The notes under the pieces: generated by a model
The model's input: only the letters and a program-made list of their open reading frames with translations
Databases searched by the model: none
What the model was told of the DNA's origin: nothing
Shown here: in pieces, positions 1-13,466 of the stretch
How the letters are laid out: every line of letters starts with the position of its first letter
Position numbering within the stretch: position 1 is the first letter of the stretch
UHGV virus genome: UHGV-0850785
DNA from: a virus
Reading direction: 5' to 3' (one strand)
DNA: 13,466 nucleotides
Position numbers and translations under genes: made by a program

Positions 1-36
1 AAAATCCCCTTAGTTTTTAAGTGGGTTTTTGTATGA
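1..36 (+). CDS. 3' end (last 11 codons) of an upstream gene cut by the window edge; function unknown, by Mu gene order possibly the DNA-circulation/tail protein
   Basis: Frame 1 is open from position 1 to TGA at 34-36; this stop overlaps ATG 33-35 of the next gene (ATGA), the same coupling pattern seen elsewhere in this operon. Far too short to identify. Confidence 0.25.
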   Translation, partial: KIPLVFKWVFV

Positions 37-929
37 ATAGGAAAAAACTAAGGGTAACGATCACCCTGAACGGAAAAAACCAAAACGGTGAGCAAAAAGT
101 ATTCGAGAGCGAATACAATCAACTGTCATCGTCAGGGCTTCGGGTTTCTTGTACCATTGTTTCGGGCAATGGAAGTTTATCGCCTACTGCTAAAATTCAG
201 GTCTATGGATTGTCGCTAACTAAAATGCTTGCGCTTTTCCGTGTGCAGTGGAATACGCTAGATGCAATGCTAAATGAAGTTGCAATCGAAGCGGGCGAAG
301 AAGGCAAGCCGTTTGAGTTGATTTATAAGGGCAATATCACAACCGCAACAATTAATATGGAGTCCGCACCCGACCCATTTTTAGACATTGATAGCGTTGT
401 CGGATTGGTTGAGCAAATGAAGCCTGCTGAGCCTTTAGCTGTCATTAACGATGTTGACGTTGCGGAAGTGGTTAGAATTATCACTGTGGACAGGATGGGC
501 TATGAGTTCGAGAACAATGGCGTATCTCAAATTATCCCTGATGGTTTCATGTCTGAGGGTGCGAACCTAGAAACAATCCGACAGTTAGCGCATGATTATG
601 ATTTCGATTTATATATTGAGCATAAATTGATTGCCATCGCCCCACGAAACACTAAGCGCGAAATCACCATCCCTCAGATAACACCAAAAGGAGGTCTTGA
701 GGGCTACCCTACCCCCGATATTAAGGGTATATCGTTTAAATGCTTTTATACTCCCCTAGTTCGCTTCGGTGGAAACTTGGAAGTAAAAGATAGTATCATT
801 GAAGTCTGCAATGGTATATGGCGCGTCTACGGCTTGAAAACCATTCTTGAAAGTGGCGTTCCAAATGGGCGCTGGTCTATGGAAGTAAATGCAACTTGGG
901 CGAATAGTACCGATGCCGTTAGAAAATGA
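33..929 (+). CDS. probable baseplate hub protein (Mu gp44 / P2 gpD position)
   Basis: About 298 aa ORF immediately upstream of the gpV-W-J-I block. Function is inferred mainly from synteny, not a recognised motif. In-frame TAA at 18-20 bounds the ORF; the track start is GTG 21, but ATG 33 forms an ATGA overlap with the upstream frame, so I prefer 33. Confidence 0.55.
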   Translation: MNRKKLRVTITLNGKNQNGEQKVFESEYNQLSSSGLRVSCTIVSGNGSLSPTAKIQVYGLSLTKMLALFRVQWNTLDAMLNEVAIEAGEEGKPFELIYKGNITTATINMESAPDPFLDIDSVVGLVEQMKPAEPLAVINDVDVAEVVRIITVDRMGYEFENNGVSQIIPDGFMSEGANLETIRQLAHDYDFDLYIEHKLIAIAPRNTKREITIPQITPKGGLEGYPTPDIKGISFKCFYTPLVRFGGNLEVKDSIIEVCNGIWRVYGLKTILESGVPNGRWSMEVNATWANSTDAVRK

Positions 930-1554
930 TCAACAGACAACGAATTATAGAGCATCCCAGAGCGTTGGCGGTGCTGCTGAATTTGAAGCCATTGTGCGCT
1001 CACTGATGGGTAAGAATCACACCTTAATGTTGGGTGAGGTGATGGCTATCACTCAAGAAGCAAGCAGCACTGATGCGGTGGGCTATCTTTCCGTCCGTCC
1101 AATGGTTTTCATGATTGATGGTTCAAACAATAACTATGAACGTGCCACGATTACTAACGTGCCTTTCTTTCGATTGCAGGCGGGCGGTAATGCAGTCATT
1201 CTAAATCCAAAAGTGGGCGATATTGGTTTGATTGCTTATTGTGAACGTGACATTTCGATGGTGAAGCGCAGCAAGCAGCAAGCAGCGCCAAACTCTCGCA
1301 GGCAGTTTAATATCAATGATGCGGTGTACTTGGGCGGTATGCTGAACGGTGCGCCTACTCAATACATTCAGTTTCTTGACAGTGGCATGAACATTAAGAC
1401 GACTGGCGATGTAAACATTAACGGCTTAACGATTGCACCGAGTGGCATTTTAACGCTTGCAAATGGCGTTGTAGTCGATACGCATATTCACGACCAAGCA
1501 AACGACAGTGACGGAAACACAGAGCAACCAGTGGGGACACCAAGAAATGGCTAA
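889..1554 (+). CDS. baseplate assembly protein V / central spike (Mu gp45, P2 gpV family)
   Basis: 221 aa with an OB-fold-like motif (PKVGDIGLIAY) and a C-terminal His-x-His (THIH, 1483-1491) typical of spike apex metal sites. Sits between hub and W/J genes. Start is ambiguous: ATG 889 has a GGAAG only 3 nt upstream, and ATG 913 is an alternative. The gene overlaps the upstream stop by 41 or 17 nt. Confidence 0.7.
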   Translation: MQLGRIVPMPLENDQQTTNYRASQSVGGAAEFEAIVRSLMGKNHTLMLGEVMAITQEASSTDAVGYLSVRPMVFMIDGSNNNYERATITNVPFFRLQAGGNAVILNPKVGDIGLIAYCERDISMVKRSKQQAAPNSRRQFNINDAVYLGGMLNGAPTQYIQFLDSGMNIKTTGDVNINGLTIAPSGILTLANGVVVDTHIHDQANDSDGNTEQPVGTPRNG

Positions 1555-1903
1555 CACTCTTTTTTTACTTCCCGATACTTGGGACTTAACATTAGATTCA
1601 AGCGGAAATATTGCTATCGCTAGTGATGTTTATCAGCAAGCACAAGACATTGCTTCTGCTTGCCGTGTGTTTCGAGGTGACATGTATTTCGATAGTGCGG
1701 AAGGTATCCCCTACTCCGAGTCGATTCTAGGCAAATCGTCTTATCCACTCGGTCTATATCAGGCAGAATTACGCAAAGCAGCCCTATCGGTTGATGGCGT
1801 GGTTAGTGCTAATATAACATTCAATAAAATTGAAAATCGGGTGCTAAGCGGCATGATTAAATTTACAAATGATCAAGATCAGACAGGAGTTGTGAGCTTA
1901 TGA
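1547..1903 (+). CDS. small baseplate protein (gpW/gp25-like or Mu gp46-like)
   Basis: About 118 aa ORF between V and J. ATG 1547 overlaps the V stop (TAA 1552-1554) and the stop overlaps the J start (ATGA at 1900-1903). The track's GTG 1508 is a possible alternative start. Family assignment is by size and position only. Confidence 0.55.
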   Translation: MANTLFLLPDTWDLTLDSSGNIAIASDVYQQAQDIASACRVFRGDMYFDSAEGIPYSESILGKSSYPLGLYQAELRKAALSVDGVVSANITFNKIENRVLSGMIKFTNDQDQTGVVSL

Positions 1904-3090
1904 TTCCTGATATTGAAATCACAGAAAATGGGATTATTGCACCCACAACAGATGAAGTTCTCGCAGGGGTTTGGGAGGTTTTAAAGACCGCATTCGGTTC
2001 AAGTTTAAATACTGCAATGAATACCCCGCAAGGGCAGTTAGCAACATCAATTACAGCGATTATTCAGAATGAGCGAAACAATTGGATTCAATTAATGAAT
2101 CAGATTGACCCGCAGTATTCTACAGGAATTTGGCAAGATGCCATCGGTGAGCTGTACTTTATCACTCGCCAATCTCAAACGTATTCAATTGCTCAAATTC
2201 GATTGTACGGCTTGAATGGCACGGTAGTTCCGTCAGGCTATAAAATCAGTGACACGGCAGGGAATATTTGGGAAACGACAACACGGTTAATTATTGACAC
2301 GACTGGTTATATTGATGGTTATGTTCAGTGTACCGTTGCAGGGGCAATCAATGCAGCCATTGGCACAATTACAAGCATCATTGTGGCGCTCTCAGGTTTA
2401 GACCGTGCAACAAATACAAGCGCAGCCGTTGCAGGTGTCAATGCTGAAAGCACGGATAACTTCGAGCAGCGCAGACAAGAGTCGGTAGCAGTAAATGCAA
2501 AACTAACCGATGCTGCGGTACGTGGCGCTGTGGCAAATTTATCAAACGTGGTCGATGTTTGGGTGAAATCAAATCCAACCGATGCTACTGTCAATTTTGG
2601 CGTGACTAATTACCCAGTGACACGGAATACTTTGCTTTGTTCTGTCGTTGGCGGTGATGATGAAGATATTGCGTGGCAGATTTTAGTAAAAGCGGGAACT
2701 GGTTGCTCGTTCGCAGGGAATACGGAAGTCACTGTTTATGACAATGACACCTACACAGTAGACCCGCCTGATTATAAAGTGAAGTTTTTGCGTCCGACAT
2801 TAAAAACGGTTAAGTTTAAAATCACGCTTGAAAATAAAAACGAAATGTCACTGCAAGATGAAAAGGCAATGAAAACCGCCATTCTTAGTGCGCTAGAAAC
2901 AGGAAAAACGCGCGCTCGCATCGGTCAAAAGCTTAGGGCTTCGGCTTATGTTTACCCAGTTAGCAGTGCATCGGATTTAAGCTTGATTAGTGTTGAGGTA
3001 AGCTTCGATGGCACAACGTGGGCTAATTATTTAGAGTTGGGCGTTGATGAATACCCAGTAACTACTGAATTCGATATTGAGGTCGCATAA
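1900..3090 (+). CDS. baseplate J-like protein (Mu gp47 / P2 gpJ family)
   Basis: 396 aa, the size and operon position of baseplate wedge J proteins. ATGA overlap with the upstream gene and TAATG overlap with the downstream gene. Confidence 0.75.
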   Translation: MIPDIEITENGIIAPTTDEVLAGVWEVLKTAFGSSLNTAMNTPQGQLATSITAIIQNERNNWIQLMNQIDPQYSTGIWQDAIGELYFITRQSQTYSIAQIRLYGLNGTVVPSGYKISDTAGNIWETTTRLIIDTTGYIDGYVQCTVAGAINAAIGTITSIIVALSGLDRATNTSAAVAGVNAESTDNFEQRRQESVAVNAKLTDAAVRGAVANLSNVVDVWVKSNPTDATVNFGVTNYPVTRNTLLCSVVGGDDEDIAWQILVKAGTGCSFAGNTEVTVYDNDTYTVDPPDYKVKFLRPTLKTVKFKITLENKNEMSLQDEKAMKTAILSALETGKTRARIGQKLRASAYVYPVSSASDLSLISVEVSFDGTTWANYLELGVDEYPVTTEFDIEVA

Positions 3091-3728
3091 TGTTTGAAGT
3101 TAAAGATACGTTGATGTCGCAGTATGCAAATAGCCCTGCAATTGTCGGGATTATTGATGGAATAGCCGATGCACTAGACCCTAATGCCACCGTGGATGAA
3201 TTTTATTCATTGCTATGGAATCTAAGCACCGCAAAGACATGGGGCTTAGATATTTGGGGACGCATTGTTGGCATGAGTCGAAACGTGCAAATGAGCGACC
3301 CCGATGCCGTAACATTCGGTTTTAAAACTAACCCTGTGTCGCAAAACTTCACACCCTTTAATGTCGCACCGTTCAGCGCAAGCGGTGCAAAATTCAACAG
3401 TTATCGACTGCCTGATAACCTCTATAAAGAGCTAATCATTATCAAGGCAGCTTCAAATATTCTCTATGCAACTGCGCCCAATATTAATAAGTATCTTCAA
3501 ATGATTTTCAGTGAAAAGGCTTACTACTACATCACGGGTCACATGACAGCAGCTTATATATTTGAATTTGAATTAACCGCATTTCAGCGTTTAATTGTCT
3601 ATACTTTGAAGTTATTACCTGAGCCGTGCGGTGTGTTAATCTCTTATGAAGAAAGAGCAGTTTCGGAGATATTTGGATTCGATGGCACAGAATATGAAAC
3701 ATTTGATAACGGAGTATTTGTTCGATGA
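3090..3728 (+). CDS. tail protein I-like baseplate protein (Mu gp48 / P2 gpI position)
   Basis: 212 aa ORF directly after J and before the fiber. Coupled by TAATG (3088-3092) and ATGA (3725-3728) overlaps. Confidence 0.6.
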   Translation: MFEVKDTLMSQYANSPAIVGIIDGIADALDPNATVDEFYSLLWNLSTAKTWGLDIWGRIVGMSRNVQMSDPDAVTFGFKTNPVSQNFTPFNVAPFSASGAKFNSYRLPDNLYKELIIIKAASNILYATAPNINKYLQMIFSEKAYYYITGHMTAAYIFEFELTAFQRLIVYTLKLLPEPCGVLISYEERAVSEIFGFDGTEYETFDNGVFVR

Positions 3729-4441
3729 GCAATCCTGATGTTATGTGGGCAAAAGCATTTGCGTGGAATGCTACAAACAGAAATACGATTCAAGATGAGC
3801 GGCAATCGTCACAAGATGCACAAGATGCCACGCTCAATGAAGGCTTTCCGCTTATCACAATGACCGCCAAAAATGCAGGAGGTATCGCTCCGAACGGTCA
3901 AGATATGAACGGTGCGCTTTATGCGATTAGTTCAGACATGGTTCATCGCCAAAAAGGTCTACGAATCCAATTTGATTCTGCCTATGCGACAAAAATCGGA
4001 GGTTATGATCAAGGCTGTATTCTTGCGTCTAACGACTACACACGTGATTACATTAGCCTTATCCCGAACAATTTAACCGATCCAAACGGTAGCGGGACTG
4101 CGGGACGTTGGGCTATATATTCAGGCGCTGGCTCTATTGCTTCTGCAACTGCGAGCATTGCGGGCATTGTTAAGATTGTTGATAGTTTGTCGAGTACCGC
4201 AACGGATGCAGCATTAACTGCTAATCAAGGTAGAATTCTGAGTGGTCTCACACAGCCAGCTACCACTACAAATGTTGGTATTACTCGATTTGCAACTGCG
4301 ACAGAGGTGGCGAATAAGTCAACTACACAAGCAGCAATTACAGCAGCAAACGCCGCAACAGTAGCGCAAAGCACAGACCTTGGTAAACAGTTCCGCCGCA
4401 TTTTTAACCACTTCCTGATTGCTGGATCGGGATACTGCTGA
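3725..4441 (+). CDS. tail fiber protein, N-terminal (baseplate-attachment) region only; 3' end runs into the junction
   Basis: Follows the gpI-like gene, as the fiber does in Mu/P2. Contains the conserved fiber N-terminal motif pattern (GIVKIVDSLSSTATDAALTANQG ... GITRFATATEVANKSTTQAAIT). At 238 aa it is far shorter than typical fibers. The last ~20 codons (after ~4380) read as antisense of the convergent gene, and no fiber chaperone gene follows. Confidence 0.65.
   Translation: MSNPDVMWAKAFAWNATNRNTIQDERQSSQDAQDATLNEGFPLITMTAKNAGGIAPNGQDMNGALYAISSDMVHRQKGLRIQFDSAYATKIGGYDQGCILASNDYTRDYISLIPNNLTDPNGSGTAGRWAIYSGAGSIASATASIAGIVKIVDSLSSTATDAALTANQGRILSGLTQPATTTNVGITRFATATEVANKSTTQAAITAANAATVAQSTDLGKQFRRIFNHFLIAGSGYC
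4319..4441. other. breakpoint zone between the myovirus baseplate module and the podovirus structural module (best estimate ~4380)
   Basis: Convergent ORFs 3725..4441 (+) and 4319..6139 (-) overlap by 123 nt. Each ORF's terminal ~20 codons are the antisense reading of the other's protein-like sequence. Composition and strand polarity switch here. Confidence 0.5.
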
Positions 4442-6139
4442 AAGCTGCGTGATGACCTGCGAAGGCATTATGCCAGTCTGAGCCACAAGCCGAACAACCC
4501 CATCATGAGTGGAGGCATCATTAATACGAAAGTTCTGCGCCATTTCTGTGTAATCAGCAGCTTTCTGCATTGACTTGTTGCTTGGGTCTAATTTTTCACC
4601 TATTGTCAGCGCCTCATTGAATCTGCGTGAATCCCGTTGCGCCTGAATTGCTTCATTTGATCTCTGAAGCAATGCAGACAATTTTCCGTAAGCATCGAGT
4701 TTTAACGCATAGTGAGGATCGTTAACCTCAGGCTTCACTTTCTGCATTTCTTCTTGCTGCTGAGAAGGAGGCAAATACTGAATTGCCTGGAATATTCTCG
4801 CGTTATCAATCGCTATATCCAGTTGATTGATTATTTTATCTGCGTTTTTTCCATACCCCCTGATGATGGTCTCCTGAGCCGGTATATAATCTGGAACCTC
4901 ACCGTTATATAGCTGGGCCATGGTGTTATTAATAGCTGGCTCAAGCTGTTCTAATATTAACTTCCTTTGCTTTTCTATCTGACTATTAGCAAGGTTATCT
5001 ATTTGATAAATAGTCAGCGGATCCATTCCAGTTTTATTTTTTCTATATCGGGAAAGCCACCCTTGTGTTTCTGATGGAAGATTTCGGATAAATTCTTCTT
5101 CTGATATTTCACCTTTACGTGGATCACCGACTTTGGCGATCAGTTTATCCACGTTACCCATCCCCCAGTTATATGCTGCTCCGGTCAATATTTCGGAACC
5201 GTACTTACCATACAGTTGATTTACATAGTCACTGGCGAGCATTTCATGCTGTTGTTCGTCCGTAGGGTTGTATTCAACGCCACGCTTGGCCGCCAGTTCT
5301 TTTCCTGTGCCCGGCATTAACTGGTATTTCCCCTGGGCTCTCTCTCCAGAAGATGTTATCGGTCCCTCAAGAAGACTACCATCAGGATTAAAATGTCGAT
5401 CACCTGATTCAACAAGGCGTATGGCAAGCATGTCCATGCCTCCAGAATCATTTTTCTGAAACAGACCATTTAGCCATCCTTCTGGATTGGCAGCGGCATA
5501 ATTCTTCGCCCGCATTTCTGTGGCACTGCGATCATCACTTTCTATTTCTTCCAGAATGCGTTCTTGTGACCATCCCCTGGCAGCTCCATATCTGGCAATG
5601 GCTACCATTCTGGAATTTCTGGCTAAAGTGGCAGTTTGCGGGTCATTCCAGGCATCCGCTTCATTTTGTATCCATAATTTTCTCGTTGCCTGATATTGCT
5701 CATCTTCATAGGCATTTGTCTGCCCTATCTCATGTCTGAGAACTCCAGTACTGAACTGAATTTTCTGTGTTCTGGCTTGTTGCAAAAACATATTTCTTGC
5801 TGCTTCATCAGTCAATGAAGCAGCTATTTCTTCCACATCCTGATCAAATCCAGATATGTACTCTTGCCCCTTACCAATCGCATTTTTGCCTTGTTGTGCA
5901 TAAAAACCGGTTTGAGGGTTATAAAGACGTTCATTGCTGCGCTGATTAAGCTGAAGGATGGCATCCTGAGACAATGCAACATTCGCTTTCTGCCTGGCTT
6001 CACCATATGCCACCGCATACTGATCTGCGACATTCGCCAGCACCTGACCTGCTTGAGGAACATCGAAGGTCTGAAAACCACCGGTTTGCACACCACGACT
6101 TTGCACCTGGCGTCCGGATGTAGTAGGAACAACAGGCAT
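4319..6139 (-). CDS. internal virion protein with lytic transglycosylase (SLT) domain (T7 gp16-type ejection protein); C-terminal ~19 residues probably not native
   Basis: 606 aa. Residues ~240-330 carry the classic SLT signature (LVESGDRHFNP ... GKYQLMPGTG ... AAYNWGMGNV), with the putative catalytic Glu at residue 244 (coords ~5408-5410). Strong RBS GGAGG 6 nt upstream (6146-6150); ATG overlaps the stop of the upstream gene (ATGA). The terminal Cys-rich tail (VCALRYCCGVCCCNCCLCS, 4319-4378) is the antisense of GCA/GCT-rich fiber codons. Confidence 0.8.
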   Translation of the reverse strand: MPVVPTTSGRQVQSRGVQTGGFQTFDVPQAGQVLANVADQYAVAYGEARQKANVALSQDAILQLNQRSNERLYNPQTGFYAQQGKNAIGKGQEYISGFDQDVEEIAASLTDEAARNMFLQQARTQKIQFSTGVLRHEIGQTNAYEDEQYQATRKLWIQNEADAWNDPQTATLARNSRMVAIARYGAARGWSQERILEEIESDDRSATEMRAKNYAAANPEGWLNGLFQKNDSGGMDMLAIRLVESGDRHFNPDGSLLEGPITSSGERAQGKYQLMPGTGKELAAKRGVEYNPTDEQQHEMLASDYVNQLYGKYGSEILTGAAYNWGMGNVDKLIAKVGDPRKGEISEEEFIRNLPSETQGWLSRYRKNKTGMDPLTIYQIDNLANSQIEKQRKLILEQLEPAINNTMAQLYNGEVPDYIPAQETIIRGYGKNADKIINQLDIAIDNARIFQAIQYLPPSQQQEEMQKVKPEVNDPHYALKLDAYGKLSALLQRSNEAIQAQRDSRRFNEALTIGEKLDPSNKSMQKAADYTEMAQNFRINDASTHDGVVRLVAQTGIMPSQVITQLSAVSRSSNQEVVKNAAELFTKVCALRYCCGVCCCNCCLCS

Positions 6140-6714
6140 CAGTAACCTCCTATTTTGAATCGGGAGTCAGAATTCATAAAACCTGAGTTAGATAACATTG
6201 GCGTCCCACCACTAGATGTACTTCCTTTAGAGAACGGACTCCACGTCCCACCAAACATCTGGTACGCACCGTATGCCTTCAGAGGCGCAGTGAGCAATGT
6301 TGTTGCTGCTCCCACATTCCCCTGTTTACGGGCTGAACTGGCTTCTGCTTTATAGTTGGCAGCCTGAACCTGATAACCGTAAGCCTCGCGTTGCGCGTTA
6401 TTCACCGTCGTCAGCGAATCAAGAGCGCCAAACTGGGCAGTGTCGCCAAATATATCCAGCGCGTTACCTGTAGATAAATCAGCGCCGGTAGCCCCCATTG
6501 TCGCCGCCTGTGTACCAAGCCGCTGTCGGGTCTCTCTGCGCCGTTGCTCAGCTTCAGCGTTACCTCTGTTTATTGCATCATTTGCCTGAGCTGTGGCTAT
6601 ATCTGCGTTCGCTTCTGCAACCTTCGAGGCATACTTTCCCTGTTGGTACTGGGTGTATGCCTGAATGCCACTCATGGCGAGCATTGCGCCACCAGCAATA
6701 ACCGGATCGCACAT
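6139..6714 (-). CDS. putative internal virion protein (T7 gp14 position); Gly/Ala/Gln/Thr-rich
   Basis: 191 aa with a hydrophobic N-terminal segment (PVIAGGAMLAMSGIQAY) followed by a low-complexity region. GGAGA RBS 7 nt upstream; TAATG overlap with the upstream gene and ATGA overlap with the SLT gene. Function is from position only. Confidence 0.55.
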   Translation of the reverse strand: MCDPVIAGGAMLAMSGIQAYTQYQQGKYASKVAEANADIATAQANDAINRGNAEAEQRRRETRQRLGTQAATMGATGADLSTGNALDIFGDTAQFGALDSLTTVNNAQREAYGYQVQAANYKAEASSARKQGNVGAATTLLTAPLKAYGAYQMFGGTWSPFSKGSTSSGGTPMLSNSGFMNSDSRFKIGGY

Positions 6715-7178
6715 TATTTTCTCTCCATGTGAAATCTGTGGAAATTAAGACCAAGAGCACCATAAGGCGCGGCTTCTTCAAGCCTGAATCCAAGCCAGTG
6801 CAGCCATGCTTTGGCAACATGGTTTCGCTCGTCGACGTAGTTTTCCAGGCGCGGATAAACTGCCAGCATCTGCTGCAATACCGGGCGGCAGTGGCGCAGA
6901 AATGTCTTCTGATATTTTTCAATACGGCTGGTCCCGACCAGCCAGGGCGTACCATTGCCACCGATCATTGACGCCGGAGATACACCAAACATGGTTACCA
7001 GTTCTCTGTTCGCGAACCCTGACCAGGCCATAGTCGCAGTGCGCAGACCAACACGCAGCGCATCTTCGGTAGTCATCAGCGATACCGCATACAGTTCGTC
7101 AATATCAGCCTGACGAACATCCGGCAAAATCATCTGAAGATGCTCTTCGGTTGCGGGAATAATTTGAACATCGATCAT
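6714..7178 (-). CDS. hypothetical virion protein (T7 gp13 position)
   Basis: 154 aa ORF. ATGA overlap with the tail tubular B stop (7176-7180); GGGGGA 5 nt upstream. No motif I can name with confidence. Confidence 0.5.
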   Translation of the reverse strand: MIDVQIIPATEEHLQMILPDVRQADIDELYAVSLMTTEDALRVGLRTATMAWSGFANRELVTMFGVSPASMIGGNGTPWLVGTSRIEKYQKTFLRHCRPVLQQMLAVYPRLENYVDERNHVAKAWLHWLGFRLEEAAPYGALGLNFHRFHMERK

Positions 7179-9649
7179 CAGAATCCCCCAACAGTAAGGC
7201 GAGGAATAACGGCAAGAACAGACAGCGGCAACGGGTCAAGCTGACGGATTTTTACACGTCCGTTTTTGCCCCAGTTACTGTCCAGCTTCACTTCTACTTT
7301 TCCGGTAGCATCATCAACAGGATCATCGTAGAACTCGAATTCACGCTGTGGATATTCGTACCATTTACCGCCGGGCGTAGTCGCCCAGATGCCGCGACTG
7401 GCATTCACAACCAGAGTAACGGACGGGATCACCTGTTTTTTGTCCAGCAGCGTTTCCTGTCCGTTAATGTTGATATCCAACGTTTCGAATTCAGCAGTTA
7501 TTGGCAGGCCGATGTGCACAACAGCCCCCGGTGATTCCAGCGTGACGGCACCTCCGGAAACTACTTTCTGTGGTTCCACGTTCGCATCAGAGAGGATGTT
7601 TACGGTCTGACCTTCAAGATGAGACAAGCCTCCAAATGTCCGGAGCGCCATCTGCCAGTTCGTGGTGGCCACATTCCTGAGGGATGGCGGGACGTTCCTG
7701 TTAGCACGAACCACTACAGCGGTATTGCTGGTTACAGAAATAATGTCGCAACGTAATTCTTTTGACACTTCATCGCCAGTATCAGGATCAGTTCCGGTAT
7801 AAGGGAACTGTAGTTGCGCACCGACATCACTACTGGTGAAGTACGCACCACCAGAAACACTGATTGTATATTCCGCACGGTAATCCCATTCACCAGAACC
7901 ACCAGTGATGGTCATCGTTCTGTCAGACGTATTTCTTCCATCATAGCTAAGGCCAGAATCAACAAAGAAAGCATCTTCATCGCTGGTAAATAAACGGCTG
8001 GACAGTCTCTCGATGTATCTCACTGTTTGCCCGTTAACGGTTCGGTTAACGACGAAATACACCGCATCTTCATTGCCTTCGCTGATACTGCATGTGCTTT
8101 CATATTTTCCGGTACTGGATTGTGGTGCCCATGCAAAAACCTGCTGATCACGCAAATAGGTCATCACCAGTAATTTACCGTCATCACGAATGCAGAAGGC
8201 GCTGGAGTAAGGGACAATAGAGAAGCACCAGTCAACAATGCTGTGCTTCTGAAAAAGATGATTGGCAAGGATGGTCAGGTCGTTCCCCTGATAGCCGTCA
8301 ACATCGAATGAATAGGCCAGATCACGGACAACACTGCCTTTCTCCTGGACGAACAGAGCAATATTCGCCACGGCAATTGGTGGGACGTTGCTTGAGCCAT
8401 TTGATCCCTGAGAGCTGAATGCAAATGATGATGGGGTTAACACTTTGTTCTGGTCGCCGGTGATGACGTACTCACCTCCGGAAGTCAGCGCCACCAGCGA
8501 ACCAACATCAATCAGGTGGCGGATCTCATTAACCTGACGCCCGGCATAGGTGTAGATAATTCTGTCGTCATCCTGCGTAGGATTGCTTTTGCCAAAATCC
8601 TTATAATCCCCAGTACGGCTGGCCCAGATAGTCTGAGGGAACGCTGTCGATGCGGCGAAGTAAAGACGTTGTTGATAATAAACAACAGTGCCAGGATAAC
8701 CGTTAACACTATTCCAGGCATATTTAGCCCATTTATAGCTGGCATTATCCTCGCCAACTACCTGCGAAGGGATATAGGAAATCACCTCAGCAGTTGCAGT
8801 AGTTCCATTTGCAGCAGAGATACGGGCAATGCCAAAACCACTGTGCAGATACTCCCACTCAATGCCAGTATCATCATCACCGGATCCGCCCCAGCCATCC
8901 CATGATGTTCCTTCTGTATGCGAAGGGCGCAAAGTGCCTGTTTTGCCTGCTGTAACGGCGCGATAGTAGTTACTGTCTGCACGGCGAATATCGCCAATCG
9001 ATGTACTCTTACTTGTTTCCCATACCGGCACTGAATCCACTGCAGGCTGTTCCAGATAGAACAATTTGCCTACCTGCTCCGCGCCAAAAATAGAGGCGCT
9101 TGCCGTTAACGTAATTGTCCCGGTGCTGGCGCTGGCATAAACCGTCACTGACTCGTCAATATTGATATCTTCAAATGGACCGTTCTTCGTTACCACATCA
9201 ACCAGTTGCCAGTTGTCATGAGCATATCGGCGCAACTCTTTCGGCGGGTATGCAGGGTGAACCAGCGTAAGCACGTCGGCGCTTTGCGTGAATTTAATTC
9301 GGAACAGATCGGCTTCAGTATATGGCGTGGCAATTTCATAAATAACATTGCTGCTGTTCAGCACCAACGCACCATCTTTGATAACGCGCATGTACTGGTG
9401 TCCGAACTCCAGAGCATAAGTCTGAACCGTCGAGAACTGGAACGGGATCAGGCGGCATTTCCGATTTGGGTATTTGGCGGCACCGACAAAACGCGTACCA
9501 GGTCGATTCTCAACTCCGCCATACTGCCGCACGATAAAGTTATCGCACTTGCGCAATGCCACCTGGTACTTCGCCATGTCGATACGACCGTACAACGACG
9601 GTCCAATTTCACCACCGGCAAAGCTGGGCTGGATCCAACTGATAGCCAT
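7178..9649 (-). CDS. tail tubular protein B / nozzle (T7 gp12 family)
   Basis: 823 aa. N-terminus MAISWIQPSFAGGEIGPSLYGRIDMAKYQ ... ENRPGTRF matches the pattern I associate with gp12-like nozzle proteins. Size and position directly after a gp11-like gene fit; ATGA overlap at 9647-9651. Confidence 0.75.
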   Translation of the reverse strand: MAISWIQPSFAGGEIGPSLYGRIDMAKYQVALRKCDNFIVRQYGGVENRPGTRFVGAAKYPNRKCRLIPFQFSTVQTYALEFGHQYMRVIKDGALVLNSSNVIYEIATPYTEADLFRIKFTQSADVLTLVHPAYPPKELRRYAHDNWQLVDVVTKNGPFEDINIDESVTVYASASTGTITLTASASIFGAEQVGKLFYLEQPAVDSVPVWETSKSTSIGDIRRADSNYYRAVTAGKTGTLRPSHTEGTSWDGWGGSGDDDTGIEWEYLHSGFGIARISAANGTTATAEVISYIPSQVVGEDNASYKWAKYAWNSVNGYPGTVVYYQQRLYFAASTAFPQTIWASRTGDYKDFGKSNPTQDDDRIIYTYAGRQVNEIRHLIDVGSLVALTSGGEYVITGDQNKVLTPSSFAFSSQGSNGSSNVPPIAVANIALFVQEKGSVVRDLAYSFDVDGYQGNDLTILANHLFQKHSIVDWCFSIVPYSSAFCIRDDGKLLVMTYLRDQQVFAWAPQSSTGKYESTCSISEGNEDAVYFVVNRTVNGQTVRYIERLSSRLFTSDEDAFFVDSGLSYDGRNTSDRTMTITGGSGEWDYRAEYTISVSGGAYFTSSDVGAQLQFPYTGTDPDTGDEVSKELRCDIISVTSNTAVVVRANRNVPPSLRNVATTNWQMALRTFGGLSHLEGQTVNILSDANVEPQKVVSGGAVTLESPGAVVHIGLPITAEFETLDININGQETLLDKKQVIPSVTLVVNASRGIWATTPGGKWYEYPQREFEFYDDPVDDATGKVEVKLDSNWGKNGRVKIRQLDPLPLSVLAVIPRLTVGGF

Positions 9650-10254
9650 CAGGACAACCTCGCAATGGTAAACTCGTCAACCGGTGGCAGTGGTTCCTGT
9701 GATTCATTCTGGCTATGCGAGCCAGCACTAAGAATCACGCGATTGTACATATTGAGGGCAAACGTACCGAGGTCTGCATTCCCAGTCAGCGCCATGTTAA
9801 TAGCTGCCGCAAGACGCCAGGCCAACGCCTCCATAAAAATGGCATCAAACATGTTCACATCTGAAACGCGAGAGACATACTTGAGCCATGCCTGCGGCTG
9901 GTCTGTGTAGATCAACTTTCCTGTTCCGTTGGTGTCTGCACCAACTTCGTACTGAACGCGCATTGCTGCTGTTGGATTGCGTACACCAGGAAGCATAATT
10001 TCAGTAATGCGCAGACAATCTGACGGGTACTGATACGCATATTCCCAGTCAGGCGGTGGATTGCTCGTATCTGCAAGCGCCACGCGTTTGGTAGCAAAGT
10101 TCCAGTCAAAATCAGAAAGCACAGCATCACGGCAGGCCTCAAAGTGCAGCGAACATTCCCCCGCTTCCTTGCTGGCTTCCGTCAGGCTGTTAATGCTGCG
10201 GCTATTGCCAATATTGGACAGCGCACGATTGCAGATCTCTACTACAGAGGCCAT
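9649..10254 (-). CDS. tail tubular protein A / adaptor (T7 gp11 family)
   Basis: 201 aa, similar in size to T7 gp11 (~196 aa), immediately upstream of the gp12-like gene. TAATG overlap with the upstream gene at 10252-10256. Confidence 0.7.
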   Translation of the reverse strand: MASVVEICNRALSNIGNSRSINSLTEASKEAGECSLHFEACRDAVLSDFDWNFATKRVALADTSNPPPDWEYAYQYPSDCLRITEIMLPGVRNPTAAMRVQYEVGADTNGTGKLIYTDQPQAWLKYVSRVSDVNMFDAIFMEALAWRLAAAINMALTGNADLGTFALNMYNRVILSAGSHSQNESQEPLPPVDEFTIARLS

Positions 10255-10577
10255 TACTCACCCCCATTGCCGTACAGGGTTTCAGCCGCTGATTTTTCTA
10301 CATCCCCGGAAACAGGAGCGATCGCCATATCAGTGATCTGCAGATCGGCGCTGCGATTAACCCCATCGTCAGTTTCTCTGGCAGACAGGCCTCGAATAAC
10401 AGCCTTTGCAGTTATCATCACTTCTGTTCCGACGCCCTGAGGTTGCGCCTTCAGCTTATTCAATGTGTCGTTATTAAGAGTGATGCACAGCCCCCACGGG
10501 TATTCATCGCGAGTTCTGGTTTCTCCGCTCTCATCCTGGTAGCTGTCAGTGCCGGTTTTGAGGTTTACGAGTTCCAT
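10254..10577 (-). CDS. hypothetical small structural protein (~107 aa)
   Basis: ORF directly upstream of and overlapping the gp11-like gene. The track start GTG 10583 lies inside the AGGAG RBS (10583-10587); ATG at 10575-10577 has 5-nt spacing, so I prefer it. Confidence 0.5.
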   Translation of the reverse strand: MELVNLKTGTDSYQDESGETRTRDEYPWGLCITLNNDTLNKLKAQPQGVGTEVMITAKAVIRGLSARETDDGVNRSADLQITDMAIAPVSGDVEKSAAETLYGNGGE

Positions 10578-10594
10578 ATACACTCCTGCAATAA

Positions 10595-10610
10595 AGGGGC
10601 CGAAGCCCCT
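10595..10610 (-). terminator. intrinsic-terminator-like hairpin (6-bp G/C-rich stem, UUCG tetraloop) followed by UUUAUU
   Basis: Minus-strand sequence AGGGGC-TTCG-GCCCCT then TTATTG, in the 44-nt gap between the 111-aa and 107-aa genes. The downstream RBS follows immediately, suggesting an attenuator rather than a full stop. Confidence 0.5.
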
Positions 10611-10627
10611 TGTCTGATCCGCGAGGC

Positions 10628-10963
10628 TTACACGCCCAGTTCTTTACGCTTATCTGCGATCTTCTCGCGGAGCGTTTCGGCTTTGGCGTTATGGTGTGGC
10701 TTCTCGTTAAAGAGCAATTCGTACTCTTCACGGAGCTTATCCAGTTCACCATCATCTGACACATCGTTGATGATTTTGGTGCTGGTTGCTGCCATTGACA
10801 CCTTTCCTGCAATTTTTGCTTTTGCCTGTCTGGCTGCATCGTTAACAGGTTCCAGTGCGCTACCAGGCTCACCTTCGTATTCGATTTCTGCCCCCTCCGG
10901 CCACAGAGTGTTATGGATATGAGAGAGGCGCAGAACGCGGTATCTTGGTTTCTCACCTGACAT
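10628..10963 (-). CDS. hypothetical small head-associated protein (~111 aa), highly charged C-terminal helix
   Basis: ORF between the 145-aa gene and the hairpin. The track start GTG 10972 lies within the RBS AAGGTGA; ATG 10961-10963 has 5-nt spacing. C-terminus is Lys/Glu-rich (DKLREEYELLFNEK ... REKIADKRKELGV). Confidence 0.5.
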   Translation of the reverse strand: MSGEKPRYRVLRLSHIHNTLWPEGAEIEYEGEPGSALEPVNDAARQAKAKIAGKVSMAATSTKIINDVSDDGELDKLREEYELLFNEKPHHNAKAETLREKIADKRKELGV

Positions 10964-10973
10964 CGATATCACC

Positions 10974-11411
10974 TTAACCAGTTACTTTTGAGCGGATCGG
11001 ATACGGCGTATTGGCATCAACATCAAGACTGATACCAGCAGTGAATTCGCCAGCCGTTAGTGGGCCAGTTGCGACGGAGTAGTTAACACGCAGATATCGC
11101 TGAACACCGGCAGGCACCTTTGCAGAAACAACTCGTTTACCTGCTGTCAGGGCGGTCTTTGCCAGTGCGCCACTATCATAAATAGTGGTCCATGAGCTGT
11201 TATTCTCACTCGTCTGCAACTGGATGTTTACAGTTGCATCACCGCTTGCCGCGGCGGCTGTGTTAACCAGCGCCCAAAACTCAAGCGGGTAACCCACGCC
11301 GATATCACGACGTTTTCCGTCAATTGGACCGAGATCGATTACGTCAGTAGAAGCCGCGGTATTCGTAACCGCCTGAGCTTCGGAGAACATCAACAGTTTG
11401 TCGGTGATCAT
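10974..11411 (-). CDS. hypothetical protein, possible capsid decoration/accessory protein (145 aa)
   Basis: First gene after the major capsid gene, with a GGAG RBS 7 nt upstream. Thr/Ala/Ser/Val-rich composition suggests a beta-rich fold. Function is from position only. Confidence 0.5.
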   Translation of the reverse strand: MITDKLLMFSEAQAVTNTAASTDVIDLGPIDGKRRDIGVGYPLEFWALVNTAAAASGDATVNIQLQTSENNSSWTTIYDSGALAKTALTAGKRVVSAKVPAGVQRYLRVNYSVATGPLTAGEFTAGISLDVDANTPYPIRSKVTG

Positions 11412-11462
11412 CTTCTTTCTCCATTAGTGGGTCTGTTACGACCAACAGGTTAATAACAGGCG

Positions 11463-12455
11463 TTACACCACGCGGGCTTCTGTTTCCAGAAGCGCATCAG
11501 TTTCACGGATTGGTACACCACGGAATGAAGTCCACCACTCGCCTTCAGTCTCTTTTACGCTGATAGCCAGAGATGTTTTCTCCAGAGATTGCAGATCAAG
11601 AGCCTGGCCTACAGTGCGGTTCATGTAGAACACCGGGCGACCCATGCCACGGTTTGGAATGCGATGCAGTGCTTTAACCATCAACTTCGCAATATTTGCG
11701 GCAGAGGAAGGTTCTGAAAGATTGCTGACATCGATGTTTGCAATGCGAACAACATAACGCCAGTCACGCAGAGCAAGTCCGTTGTCCCATTTGTAATGGG
11801 TACGGTAGCCTTCGTACTTGCCGCCATTAACATCTTCCAGTGTCACCTGGCCTTTATCTTCCATCTGGATTCCAGCCTTCTGCCCTTTCGGGAAGATGCC
11901 ATGCACGGTGTTTTCGCCCCACACCACTAACCAGATTGAGGTGTTATCTGTACCCGTGCCACCAGCATCAATGATGTTCTGAGCATTACCCGCAGACAGG
12001 CTGGAATAGCGGGAGGACAGTCCCATAAACTGCTGAGGGTTAACGCTGGAATCACCATAAAACAACGTCTGCGCCATCTGCTGATTCATCGCTTCAATAA
12101 ATGCGCGGTCTTCAGACAGGCGGAATTCGGCGGTATTACCGTTCAGATCAGCCAGTGACTTATCGACTTCAGCATAGGTTTCCAGCATTCCAACGGAATC
12201 GGTGACCTGCACTGTGGTTGATTTGCTTGGCTGTACGCCATAGTTCAGCAAACGCCAGGTGGCTGAAGGTAAACCAGAACGAATGGTGGTTCGGTGTCCG
12301 GTAGGAAGGTTCCCTTCGACAAAAGGCATATCCTGAAGGATCGGGTTAGTTTGACCGAGAAGCTCGATAATCTTATCGACTTTCCCGTTTGGATCGACGC
12401 GCTTACCCCAGTCAGCCAGCGTTAGCGCAGTTAAGCCTTTAACAGCCATTGTCAT
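11463..12455 (-). CDS. major capsid protein
   Basis: 330 aa, directly downstream of the scaffold gene. The N-terminal region (LADWGKRVDPNG ... ILQDMPFVEGNLPTGH ... AFIEAMNQQMAQTLFYG) resembles podovirus major capsid proteins I recall. The second ATG (12447-12449) has better RBS spacing (GAGAGGA 8 nt upstream), so the true start may be 12449. Confidence 0.8.
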   Translation of the reverse strand: MTMAVKGLTALTLADWGKRVDPNGKVDKIIELLGQTNPILQDMPFVEGNLPTGHRTTIRSGLPSATWRLLNYGVQPSKSTTVQVTDSVGMLETYAEVDKSLADLNGNTAEFRLSEDRAFIEAMNQQMAQTLFYGDSSVNPQQFMGLSSRYSSLSAGNAQNIIDAGGTGTDNTSIWLVVWGENTVHGIFPKGQKAGIQMEDKGQVTLEDVNGGKYEGYRTHYKWDNGLALRDWRYVVRIANIDVSNLSEPSSAANIAKLMVKALHRIPNRGMGRPVFYMNRTVGQALDLQSLEKTSLAISVKETEGEWWTSFRGVPIRETDALLETEARVV

Positions 12456-12463
12456 TTCCTCTC

Positions 12464-13159
12464 TTATTTGCCATAGAGCACTTCGGCCGCACTACGCTGG
12501 CCTTCATTACCACCGGTGACCATGCCATCTTCAGACATCGCCTTTCCGATTTTCACGAACGTTTTGACCAGATCAGGGTGATTACCCAGCCCGGTGGTGT
12601 TCAGATATTCTTTGAGCTCAGGTGTCCCGAACTGGTCAAGCGCACGCTGTGCGGCGCTAAGGTTAGAAATCAACTTGTCGCCACCGATTTCTTTGTCAGC
12701 TTTTACATCCGCAGCCCACTGCTCGGTTGTTTTCTGCCAGGCTTCTGCCTGGCGCTGCTGAACACCTGCCAGAATCTTCGGATAAGCATCAACCAGCTTT
12801 TGCGCTTGCTCGTTGGTCAGGTTTAGTTCTCGAGCCACCGGCTCGAACTCCTTCAACGCTTCTGTATCCAGCTCTACGCCTTCGGCAGCCTGAAACTCGT
12901 ACTTCTCAGGCGCACCCTCTGGTTTATCGCCGTCCTTTTTTTCATCCTGCTTATCGTTTTCAGACTTTTTGTCATCAGCAGGTTTATCGCCATCAGCAAC
13001 AGGTTGTGGCTTATCACCTTCCTGTTGTGATGGATCACCAACTGGAGCAGGGTTATCACCTGCAGGCGCTGACGGTTCTGACGCAGCCGGAGCTGCTCCA
13101 CCATCGACTGGTTGCTCATTGCAAAGACGGCGATACAGCAAACGCTCAAATAAATTCAT
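12464..13159 (-). CDS. scaffolding protein
   Basis: ~231 aa immediately upstream of the capsid gene. Acidic Pro/Asp/Lys-rich low-complexity N-terminal half with GDKP repeats, then a helical region. The track start GTG 13165 sits in the AGGAG RBS; ATG 13157-13159 has 5-nt spacing. Confidence 0.7.
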   Translation of the reverse strand: MNLFERLLYRRLCNEQPVDGGAAPAASEPSAPAGDNPAPVGDPSQQEGDKPQPVADGDKPADDKKSENDKQDEKKDGDKPEGAPEKYEFQAAEGVELDTEALKEFEPVARELNLTNEQAQKLVDAYPKILAGVQQRQAEAWQKTTEQWAADVKADKEIGGDKLISNLSAAQRALDQFGTPELKEYLNTTGLGNHPDLVKTFVKIGKAMSEDGMVTGGNEGQRSAAEVLYGK

Positions 13160-13161
13160 GA

Positions 13162-13458
13162 TCACTCCTGTTCACTGGCCTCTTTGGCCATCTTCAAATA
13201 CTGTTCAGGGCAATGCGCCATAACGCGCTGAAACAGTTCCAGCGCCAGATTGCGTTGCCCCTCATTAAATGCCATTGCCATAGCGTCCATCGGTGAGATA
13301 GCGGAAAACACACGGCCTTTCTCCAGCACCGACCAGACAACGCGACGCCCCTGTTCACTGCTCATGACAAAGCGAATGTCATCAATTTCACGCTGCGCCA
13401 TGTCACGTTGCTTACGGGCGTTTTCTTCTTTCAGTTGATCGTCTTCGTAATCTGTCAT
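13162..13458 (-). CDS. hypothetical small acidic protein (98 aa) between the presumed portal gene and the scaffold gene
   Basis: ORF whose stop (TGA 13162-13164) lies in the scaffold RBS/spacer. Its ATG (13456-13458) overlaps a TGA (13455-13457) that would end a minus-strand gene entering from the right edge (ATGA). No recognisable motif. Confidence 0.5.
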   Translation of the reverse strand: MTDYEDDQLKEENARKQRDMAQREIDDIRFVMSSEQGRRVVWSVLEKGRVFSAISPMDAMAMAFNEGQRNLALELFQRVMAHCPEQYLKMAKEASEQE

Positions 13459-13466
13459 TGTGATTG

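What the first reader, a model, noticed from the sequence alone, without database searches (positions are those of the whole stretch)
4319..4441. Tail-to-tail breakpoint fusing a myovirus baseplate operon to a podovirus structural operon
Two convergent, clearly real genes (tail fiber 3725..4441 on + and SLT internal virion protein 4319..6139 on -) overlap by 123 nt with no spacer or terminator. The last ~20 residues of the minus-strand protein (VCALRYCCGVCCCNCCLCS) are just the antisense of GCA/GCT-rich fiber codons (QAAITAANAATVAQS). The last ~20 residues of the fiber (KQFRRIFNHFLIAGSGYC) are the antisense of protein-like SLT sequence (SRSSNQEVVKNAAELFTK). This is what results when two unrelated sequences are joined near ~4380 and each ORF runs ~20 codons into foreign antisense before a chance stop. 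It could be a natural deletion fusing two adjacent decaying prophages, a misassembly, or an engineered join; the sequence alone cannot say which.
Basis: partly seen in the sequence, partly recalled or inferred. Interest (0 to 1): 0.8.

Follow-up and report, generated by a model that had tools for sequence, protein, structure and literature searches.

The report
Chimeric join of two unrelated phages
The overlapping gene ends are real in the sequence, but they mark the exact base where pieces of two unrelated phage genomes from one human-gut virome were stuck together, almost certainly in the tube or the computer, so this is a data-quality flag and not biology.

Summary
Two convergent ORFs overlap by 123 nt because two unrelated sequences are joined at window base 4384.

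- **Left side.** Window 1..4384 matches contig CYGL01000279.1 of assembly GCA_001292545.1 with 1 mismatch. This is an uncultured myophage whose only named relatives are Acinetobacter (Obolenskvirus-like) phages.
- **Right side.** Window 4384..13466 matches a very common E. coli TL-2011b-like podophage module. It has 2 mismatches to an E. coli contig. It has 1 mismatch to contig CYGL01000890.1 of the same assembly.
- **Same sample.** That assembly is a human-gut metagenome, so both phages co-occur there. Each parent contig reads straight through the breakpoint.
- **Truncations.** The fibre-like protein is natively 308 aa and only 220 aa are kept. The SLT protein is natively about 900 aa and only 585 aa are kept. 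None of 240 homologues has either odd tail.
- **Junction.** The parents share a single base at the join. There is no repeat, spacer or scar.
- **Not seen elsewhere.** The junction is absent from three public collections, and both fused ORFs are absent from the gene index.
- **No common genome.** No complete E. coli genome carries the left part.

Best reading: a chimeric contig made by a library, assembly or concatenation error. It is not a prophage fusion. Interest is low.

The parts
1..4384 (+). Left parent segment: baseplate and tail-fibre module of an uncultured Obolenskvirus-like myophage. It equals CYGL01000279.1 positions 256..4639.
   Evidence: 1 mismatch in 4384 bases, at window 22. 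All 81 matching phage records are Acinetobacter phages at 66-72% nt identity. IMG/VR contigs give about 83.5% nt identity.
33..929 (+). 298-aa baseplate protein (Pfam E217_GP41)
   Evidence: Called gene L003 288..1184 with precomputed Pfam
889..1554 (+). 221-aa baseplate-module protein
   Evidence: Called gene L003 1144..1809; ORF list
1547..1903 (+). 118-aa tail sheath initiator (PF10934)
   Evidence: Called gene L003 1802..2158
1900..3090 (+). 396-aa Baseplate_J protein
   Evidence: Best isolate match is Acinetobacter phage Acjo_20 at 65.8% aa.
3090..3728 (+). 212-aa baseplate wedge protein (PF11041)
   Evidence: The exact protein was found only in GCA_001292545.1.
3725..4384 (+). Native part (aa 1-220 of 308) of a short tail-fibre-like protein. 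It is cut right at the start of its exchangeable C-terminal module.
   Evidence: 100% identical to P0001 over aa 1-220. Weak Phage_fiber_rpt hit. More than 20 IMG/VR loci match only aa 217/219-308.
4385..4441 (+). Read-through tail of the fibre ORF (KQFRRIFNHFLIAGSGYC*). It is the antisense of the SLT gene and not native coding sequence.
   Evidence: No homologue shares a 5-mer with it.
4384..4384 (.). The junction: one T shared by both parents, with no spacer, repeat, linker or N run
   Evidence: Base-by-base comparison with both parents. No shared k-mer longer than 10 nt within 300 nt of the breakpoints.
4319..4384 (-). Read-through tail of the SLT ORF (TKVCALRYCCGVCCCNCCLCS*). It is the antisense of Ala-rich fibre codons and not native coding sequence.
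   Evidence: No homologue shares a 5-mer with it.
4385..6139 (-). Native part (aa 1-585 of 902-905) of the podophage SLT-domain virion protein (TL-2011b gp37). About 320 C-terminal residues are missing.
   Evidence: SLT domain at aa 263-342.
4384..13466 (-). Right parent segment: structural module of a TL-2011b-like E. coli podophage, running from the portal gene 3' end to the SLT gene
   Evidence: 2 mismatches in 9083 bases to AASIJY010000045.1 and 1 mismatch in 7070 bases to CYGL01000890.1. Matches in 560 of 5,426 E. coli genomes.
6139..6714 (-). 191-aa virion core protein, T7 gp14 family
6714..7178 (-). 154-aa internal virion protein
7178..9649 (-). 823-aa tail protein
   Evidence: The exact protein is present in GCA_001292545.1 contig 890 and GCA_012361995.1.
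9649..10254 (-). 201-aa tail protein
10254..10577 (-). 107-aa Gp10-like capsid staple protein
10974..11411 (-). 145-aa Bbp16 capsid cement protein
11463..12449 (-). 328-aa major capsid protein (Pfam GP7)
12464..13159 (-). 231-aa protein annotated as protease/peptidase
13162..13458 (-). 98-aa Bbp19-like protein

Best explanation
Base 4384 is a non-biological join between two different phage genomes that co-occur in one human-gut virome or metagenome sample. The left piece is the baseplate/fibre module of an uncultured Obolenskvirus-like myophage. The right piece is the structural module of a TL-2011b-like E. coli podophage, in the opposite orientation. The join cuts both genes mid-sequence, so each ORF runs on into the antisense of the other gene until a chance stop. 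That produces the 123-nt overlap, the Cys-rich tail and the missing terminator.

Shown: the identity of both parents, the exact breakpoint, the truncations, the lack of homology at the join, and the absence of the junction elsewhere.

Inferred: that the join was made in vitro (a chimeric library fragment or amplification chimera), in silico (two contig ends joined or concatenated), or by deliberate splicing. Both breakpoints lie just before hypervariable gene cassettes, where assemblers tend to end contigs. That favours end-to-end joining of two contig ends, but only weakly.
For: 1. Each flank is nearly identical to an independent sequence that continues past the breakpoint. The left flank has 1 mismatch in 4384 bases to CYGL01000279.1, which goes on to a complete 308-aa gene and a 944-aa fibre. 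The right flank has 1 mismatch in 7070 bases to CYGL01000890.1, which continues 1700 nt colinear with E. coli prophages.
2. Both parent contigs belong to one assembly, GCA_001292545.1. [quoted passage not shown]
3. The junction 30-mer is absent from IMG/VR, from 241 M JGI metagenome records and from 100,044 species genomes. Neither fused ORF is in the index of 153 G gene positions.
4. The left part is in no complete E. coli genome. Its named relatives are all Acinetobacter phages. The right part is in 560 of 5,426 E. coli genomes.
5. None of 240 homologues carries either tail. Median native lengths are 309 aa and 896 aa.
6. Two essential virion genes are truncated, tail to tail, with only 1 nt of overlap and no repeat.
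7. The flanks show essentially zero divergence from the intact parents, so the event is extremely recent.
8. The breakpoints lie 23-80 nt and 86-90 nt before natural variable cassettes.
9. A 2017 review states that, with one exception, all gut viromes generated to that date relied on PCR or MDA amplification. MDA is a known source of chimeras.
Against: - No reads could be mapped, so there is no direct evidence of missing read support.
- The window is not byte-identical to the public parent contigs: it has SNPs at 22 and 10362 and runs 2012 nt past the end of contig 890. Its own source assembly is unknown and could in principle hold real support for the join.
- The junction is not typical of an MDA chimera. 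Those are mostly intramolecular and more than 70% show 2-21 nt of complementarity at the junction.
- The join is not explained by a shared repeat that would fool a de Bruijn assembler.
- The host of the left phage is inferred only from its relatives.
Confidence: 0.85

Rival explanations
1. A genuine in vivo hybrid molecule. Illegitimate (homology-free) recombination between the replicating myophage and the podophage or prophage in one co-infected cell gave a defective hybrid DNA. This was packaged and was abundant enough in the virome to assemble.
For: Both phages are in the same sample. A junction with 0-1 nt of homology is compatible with illegitimate end joining. The left phage's host is not established experimentally.
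Against: All named relatives of the left phage infect Acinetobacter, and the right phage is an E. coli prophage type. An essential virion gene of each phage is destroyed at the join, so the molecule could not propagate by itself. The junction is unseen elsewhere. The intact parents are present in the sibling assembly.
Confidence: 0.08
2. A natural deletion in a bacterial chromosome that fused two neighbouring decaying prophages.
For: The TL-2011b-like element is a common E. coli prophage. Deletions between adjacent prophages do occur (general knowledge).
Against: None of 5,426 complete E. coli genomes has the left part at all. A conserved 24-mer of the left phage group is absent from 100,044 species-representative genomes. 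The closest named relatives are free Acinetobacter phage isolates of about 43-46 kb and about 42-kb viral contigs. The parents come from a gut metagenome as separate intact contigs. Neither flank shows decay: there are no other frameshifts or stops in the window's genes.
Confidence: 0.03
3. Nothing is joined. The two genes natively overlap by 123 nt and natively end in these tails.
For: The ORFs are intact and open as read.
Against: Identity to each parent stops at one base. All full-length homologues are about 300 aa and about 900 aa. Homologue coverage of the query stops at aa 220 and aa 585, and no homologue shares even a 5-mer with either tail.
Confidence: 0.01

Closest known systems
Chimeric contigs in amplified virome/metagenome assemblies (library ligation chimeras, MDA chimeras, contig mis-joins)
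   Same: Two co-occurring genomes are joined mid-gene with no homology. Both parents exist intact in the same sample. The junction is unique. The source is a gut metagenome from the era when viromes were PCR- or MDA-amplified.
   Different: Classical MDA chimeras are mostly intramolecular, and most show 2-21 nt of junction complementarity (PMC1855051). This join is intermolecular with 1 nt of overlap. That fits a blunt ligation or a contig-end concatenation better.
Natural phage mosaicism (module exchange at gene or domain boundaries)
   Same: The left breakpoint falls within 1-3 residues of the natural boundary of the fibre's exchangeable C-terminal module. The right breakpoint lies about 90 nt before a mosaic boundary in the SLT gene.
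   Different: Natural mosaics keep orientation and reading frames and give working genes. This join is tail to tail, runs into antisense sequence, truncates two essential genes, and links phages whose relatives have different host orders.
Escherichia phage TL-2011b and related E. coli prophages (right part)
   Same: 97.9% nt identity to TL-2011b over 9.1 kb with the same gene order. 98.8% to the best complete E. coli genome and 99.98% to an E. coli draft contig.
   Different: The SLT gene is cut after codon 585 of 902-905. The downstream 1004-1007-aa gene and the rest of the phage are absent.
Obolenskvirus-like Acinetobacter myophages (AB1, Acjo_20) (left part)
   Same: Same gene order, with the baseplate genes, wedge protein, short fibre and long fibre all on one strand. 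The only named relatives are of this kind.
   Different: Only 66-72% nt identity, and 41-66% aa identity in baseplate J. GC is about 42-47%, against 37-38% for Obolenskvirus genomes. It is a distinct uncultured lineage with about 83% nt relatives in IMG/VR.

Membership tests
Chimeric (artefactual) contig junction | Each flank matches an independent sequence that continues colinearly past the breakpoint | tested here: met
   L003 reads on into a complete 308-aa gene. L007 and L006 read on 1700 nt or more.
Chimeric (artefactual) contig junction | The junction is not reproduced in independent data | tested here: met
   The 30-mer is absent from viral contigs, genome contigs and metagenome contigs. 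The fused ORFs are not on record. No phage or E. coli record spans it.
Chimeric (artefactual) contig junction | Both parents are present in the same sequenced sample | tested here: met
   Contigs 279 and 890 both belong to GCA_001292545.1. That record set is described as a human gut metagenome.
Chimeric (artefactual) contig junction | Reads do not support the junction, or coverage steps at it | not testable with these tools
   No read data or mapping tool was available.
MDA chimera (Lasken-Stockwell type) | Inverted orientation of the joined segments | tested here: inconclusive
   The two gene sets are convergent at the join. With two unrelated parent molecules there is no common reference strand, so 'inverted' in the sense of PMC1855051 cannot be assessed.
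MDA chimera (Lasken-Stockwell type) | Intramolecular, with both parts from one template | tested here: not met
   The parts come from two unrelated genomes.
MDA chimera (Lasken-Stockwell type) | 2-21 nt of complementarity at the junction (over 70% of cases) | tested here: not met
   Only 1 nt is shared. This is still compatible with the minority class.
Natural phage mosaic junction | The join preserves orientation and open reading frames and gives functional genes | tested here: not met
   The join is tail to tail. Both genes are truncated and extended by antisense read-through.
Natural phage mosaic junction | The junction is shared by independent genomes | tested here: not met
Fusion of adjacent prophages in one bacterial genome | Some bacterial genome carries both elements | tested here: not met
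   The left part is absent from 5,426 complete E. coli genomes. A conserved 24-mer is absent from 100,044 species representatives. The 24-mer test is exact-match only, so it is weak for distant relatives.
TL-2011b-like podophage structural module (right part) | Colinear high identity to TL-2011b over the stretch from the portal gene to the SLT gene | tested here: met
   97.9% over 9.1 kb with the same gene order
Obolenskvirus (genus) (left part) | Genus-level nucleotide identity (about 70% over the genome) to Obolenskvirus members | tested here: inconclusive
   Only 17-60% of the 4.4-kb query aligns, at 66-72% identity. GC is higher than in the genus. It is a related lineage, and membership is not shown.

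The most novel reading that the evidence does not exclude
The junction is a real, packaged hybrid DNA formed in vivo by homology-free recombination between an Obolenskvirus-like myophage and an E. coli TL-2011b-like podophage. That would imply that this lineage, known only through Acinetobacter-phage relatives, replicates in the same cell as an E. coli prophage. It would also mean a virome captured an inter-family phage recombination intermediate.
Probability: 0.07. Interest if true: 0.5.

Novelty: not a real feature. Interest (0 to 1): 0.1.

Why it matters
The value is as quality control. The window should not be read as one genome, and the two fused ORFs (238 aa and 606 aa) should not enter protein databases as real proteins. 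Any "myovirus-podovirus hybrid" or host-range inference drawn from this contig would be false. The case also shows that a long convergent overlap, together with a compositionally odd tail such as poly-Cys read from antisense Ala codons, is a simple sequence-only sign of a chimeric join. If the join were real, which is unlikely, it would document recombination between phages of different families and apparently different hosts.

Tried and rejected
- **Fused ORFs.** I looked up both in the gene-position index. Neither is on record.
- **Junction 30-mer.** I scanned IMG/VR, GTDB species genomes and JGI metagenomes. There were no hits.
- **Tracing the source by SNP.** I looked up the Gp10-like protein that overlaps SNP 10362. 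The protein is ubiquitous (30,506 blocks), so this gave nothing.
- **Repeat or microhomology.** I looked for one that could explain an assembler mis-join or template switch. The longest shared word near the breakpoints is 8-10 nt, and the only 17-mer is far away. This was rejected.
- **Terminator or promoter at the join.** None was found.
- **Mosaic boundary exactly at the right breakpoint.** The nearest is 86-90 nt further on, so it is close but not coincident.
- **Reyes et al. 2015 PNAS virome paper.** I tried to read it to confirm the amplification and sequencing method, but it is not held. The link from "HumMal, Ma_F259" to that study rests on my memory. Only "human gut metagenomic sequences" is documented.
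- **Prophage relatives of the left phage.** I scanned species genomes with a conserved 24-mer and found none. This is an exact-match test only.
- **DGR or programmed overlap.** I considered these and dropped them, because nothing in the sequence supports them.

Full report
**Observation.** The ORF list and translations confirm a 238-aa ORF on the + strand (3725..4441) and a 606-aa ORF on the - strand (4319..6139). They converge and overlap by 123 nt. No terminator-like or promoter-like site lies at the overlap.

**Locating the breakpoint.** A megablast of 3000..5800 against phages and against 5,426 complete E. coli genomes gave hits that all start at query base 1385, which is window 4384. None extends to the left of that base.
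- Base-by-base comparison shows that identity to Escherichia phage TL-2011b starts at 4384.
- An exact-protein look-up of the neighbouring baseplate genes led to contig CYGL01000279.1 of GCA_001292545.1.
- Window 1..4384 equals positions 256..4639 of that contig with one mismatch, and identity ends at 4384.
- The two parents therefore share a single T.
- The right part (4384..13466) has 2 mismatches in 9083 bases to an E. coli draft contig (AASIJY010000045.1). It has 1 mismatch in 7070 bases to contig CYGL01000890.1, which belongs to the same assembly as the left parent.

**What was cut.**
- In the left parent the gene is a 308-aa fibre-like protein followed by a 944-aa fibre. The window keeps aa 1-220 and adds 18 foreign residues.
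- In TL-2011b and in E. coli prophages the SLT-domain protein is 902-905 aa. The window keeps aa 1-585 and adds 21 residues.
- The 120 best fibre homologues have a median length of 309 aa and cover 92% of the query, which is 220 of 238 residues.
- The 120 best SLT homologues have a median length of 896 aa and cover 97% of the query, which is 585 of 606 residues.
- None of the 240 homologues shares a 5-residue word with either tail.

**Who the parents are.**
- The right part is a very common E. coli podophage structural module. It matches in 560 of 5,426 genomes, is 97.9% identical to TL-2011b, and has the same gene order from the portal gene to the SLT gene.
- The left part has no match in any complete E. 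coli genome.
- All 81 phage records that match the left part are Acinetobacter myophages, at 66-72% nt identity.
- Its baseplate J protein is closest to Acinetobacter phage Acjo_20 at 66% aa identity. The next 24 hits are all Acinetobacter phages.
- Acjo_20 has the same one-strand gene order through two fibre genes.
- IMG/VR holds relatives at about 83% nt identity on contigs of up to about 43 kb.
- A 24-mer conserved in this group is absent from 100,044 species-representative genomes.

**Where they come from.**
[quoted passage not shown] GCA_001292545.1 is therefore a gut metagenome or virome assembly, not an isolate.
- From memory this is the Malawian-twin virome study. I could not open that paper.
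- A 2017 review states that, apart from one study, all gut viromes to that date used PCR or MDA amplification.
- Contig 890 differs from the E. coli contig by a 1-nt deletion in an A6 run that frameshifts its SLT gene. That is a typical pyrosequencing-type error.
- Both parent contigs read through the breakpoint.
- The window is not identical to them. It has SNPs at 22 and 10362 and extends 2012 nt beyond contig 890, so it comes from another assembly of the same or a sibling sample.

**Is the junction seen anywhere else?** No.
- The 30-mer across it is absent from IMG/VR, from GTDB species genomes and from JGI metagenomes.
- The fused ORFs are not in the gene index.

**Mechanism.**
- The parents share no repeat. 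The longest common word within 300 nt of the breakpoints is 8-10 nt. A repeat-driven graph mis-join and a microhomology-primed template switch are therefore both unsupported.
- Classical MDA chimeras are mostly intramolecular, and more than 70% show 2-21 nt of complementarity at the junction (PMC1855051). This join would belong to the minority class.
- Both breakpoints lie just before natural variable cassettes.
  - The fibre's C-terminal module begins at aa 217-219, and more than 20 unrelated IMG/VR loci match only aa 219-308.
  - Some fibre homologues carry an alternative Gp53-like_C domain from aa 225.
  - Nucleotide homology among relatives ends at window-equivalent 4221, 4407 or 4464 and resumes at 4650.
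  - E. coli prophage variants of the SLT gene diverge sharply 86-90 nt beyond the breakpoint.
- Assemblers tend to end contigs at such strain-variation branch points. An end-to-end join of two contig ends is therefore the most specific reading, with a chimeric ligation fragment as the alternative. This step is inference and was noticed after the fact.
- A deliberate splice cannot be excluded from sequence alone. There is no linker, scar or N run.

**Why not biology.**
- The join is tail to tail and destroys an essential virion gene of each phage.
- It links phages whose relatives infect different bacterial orders.
- It shows no divergence from the intact parents in the same sample, and it is unique.
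- A natural fusion of adjacent prophages is disfavoured, because no searched bacterial genome carries the left element.
- A real in vivo hybrid molecule remains possible at a few percent. It could be tested by read mapping or by junction PCR on unamplified DNA.

**Verdict.**
- The origin is most likely artefactual (0.85).
- It is not a real biological feature, and interest is low (0.1).

Noticed in passing
window 3725..4384; L003 3980..4906; IMG/VR loci L033-L098: The short fibre family is modular. It has a conserved N-terminal part of about 220 aa and an exchangeable C-terminal domain of about 90 aa that starts at aa 217-219 (motif LGVGQTW). That domain alone is found in more than 20 otherwise unrelated viral contigs. 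Some homologues carry a Gp53-like_C domain (PF21882) in its place.
   Followed up: partly
L007 about 7584 (CYGL01000890.1), outside the window: The public virome contig has a 1-nt deletion in an A6 run relative to the E. coli contig L006. This splits its SLT gene into 783-aa and 121-aa ORFs. It is probably a homopolymer sequencing error in the deposited assembly.
   Followed up: yes
window 4385..6139 versus 6140..13466; L006 15233..15900: The SLT gene has lower GC (0.40-0.48) than the rest of the podophage module (0.50-0.54). Its 3' third is a mosaic hot spot among E. coli prophages, with 16-60 mismatches per 100 nt. In other prophages the gene at this position encodes 837-935-aa proteins with no SLT Pfam hit.
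   Followed up: partly
window 22: The single difference from the left parent (T here, G in CYGL01000279.1) creates a GTG. This makes the mechanical ORF start at 21 instead of at the native ATG at 33. It has no effect on the called protein.
   Followed up: yes
window 1..4384; L019-L025: The left phage belongs to an uncultured lineage with GC of about 42-47% and about 83% nt relatives on IMG/VR contigs of up to about 43 kb. It is a sister to the Acinetobacter Obolenskvirus-like phages. Exact copies of two of its proteins (212 aa and 396 aa) were found only in this one assembly and in run ERR975268. Its host is unknown.
   Followed up: partly
window 889..929: The 298-aa and 221-aa baseplate genes overlap by 41 nt on the same strand. 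The overlap is conserved in the parent contig and in phage Acjo_20, so unlike the 123-nt overlap it is native.
   Followed up: no
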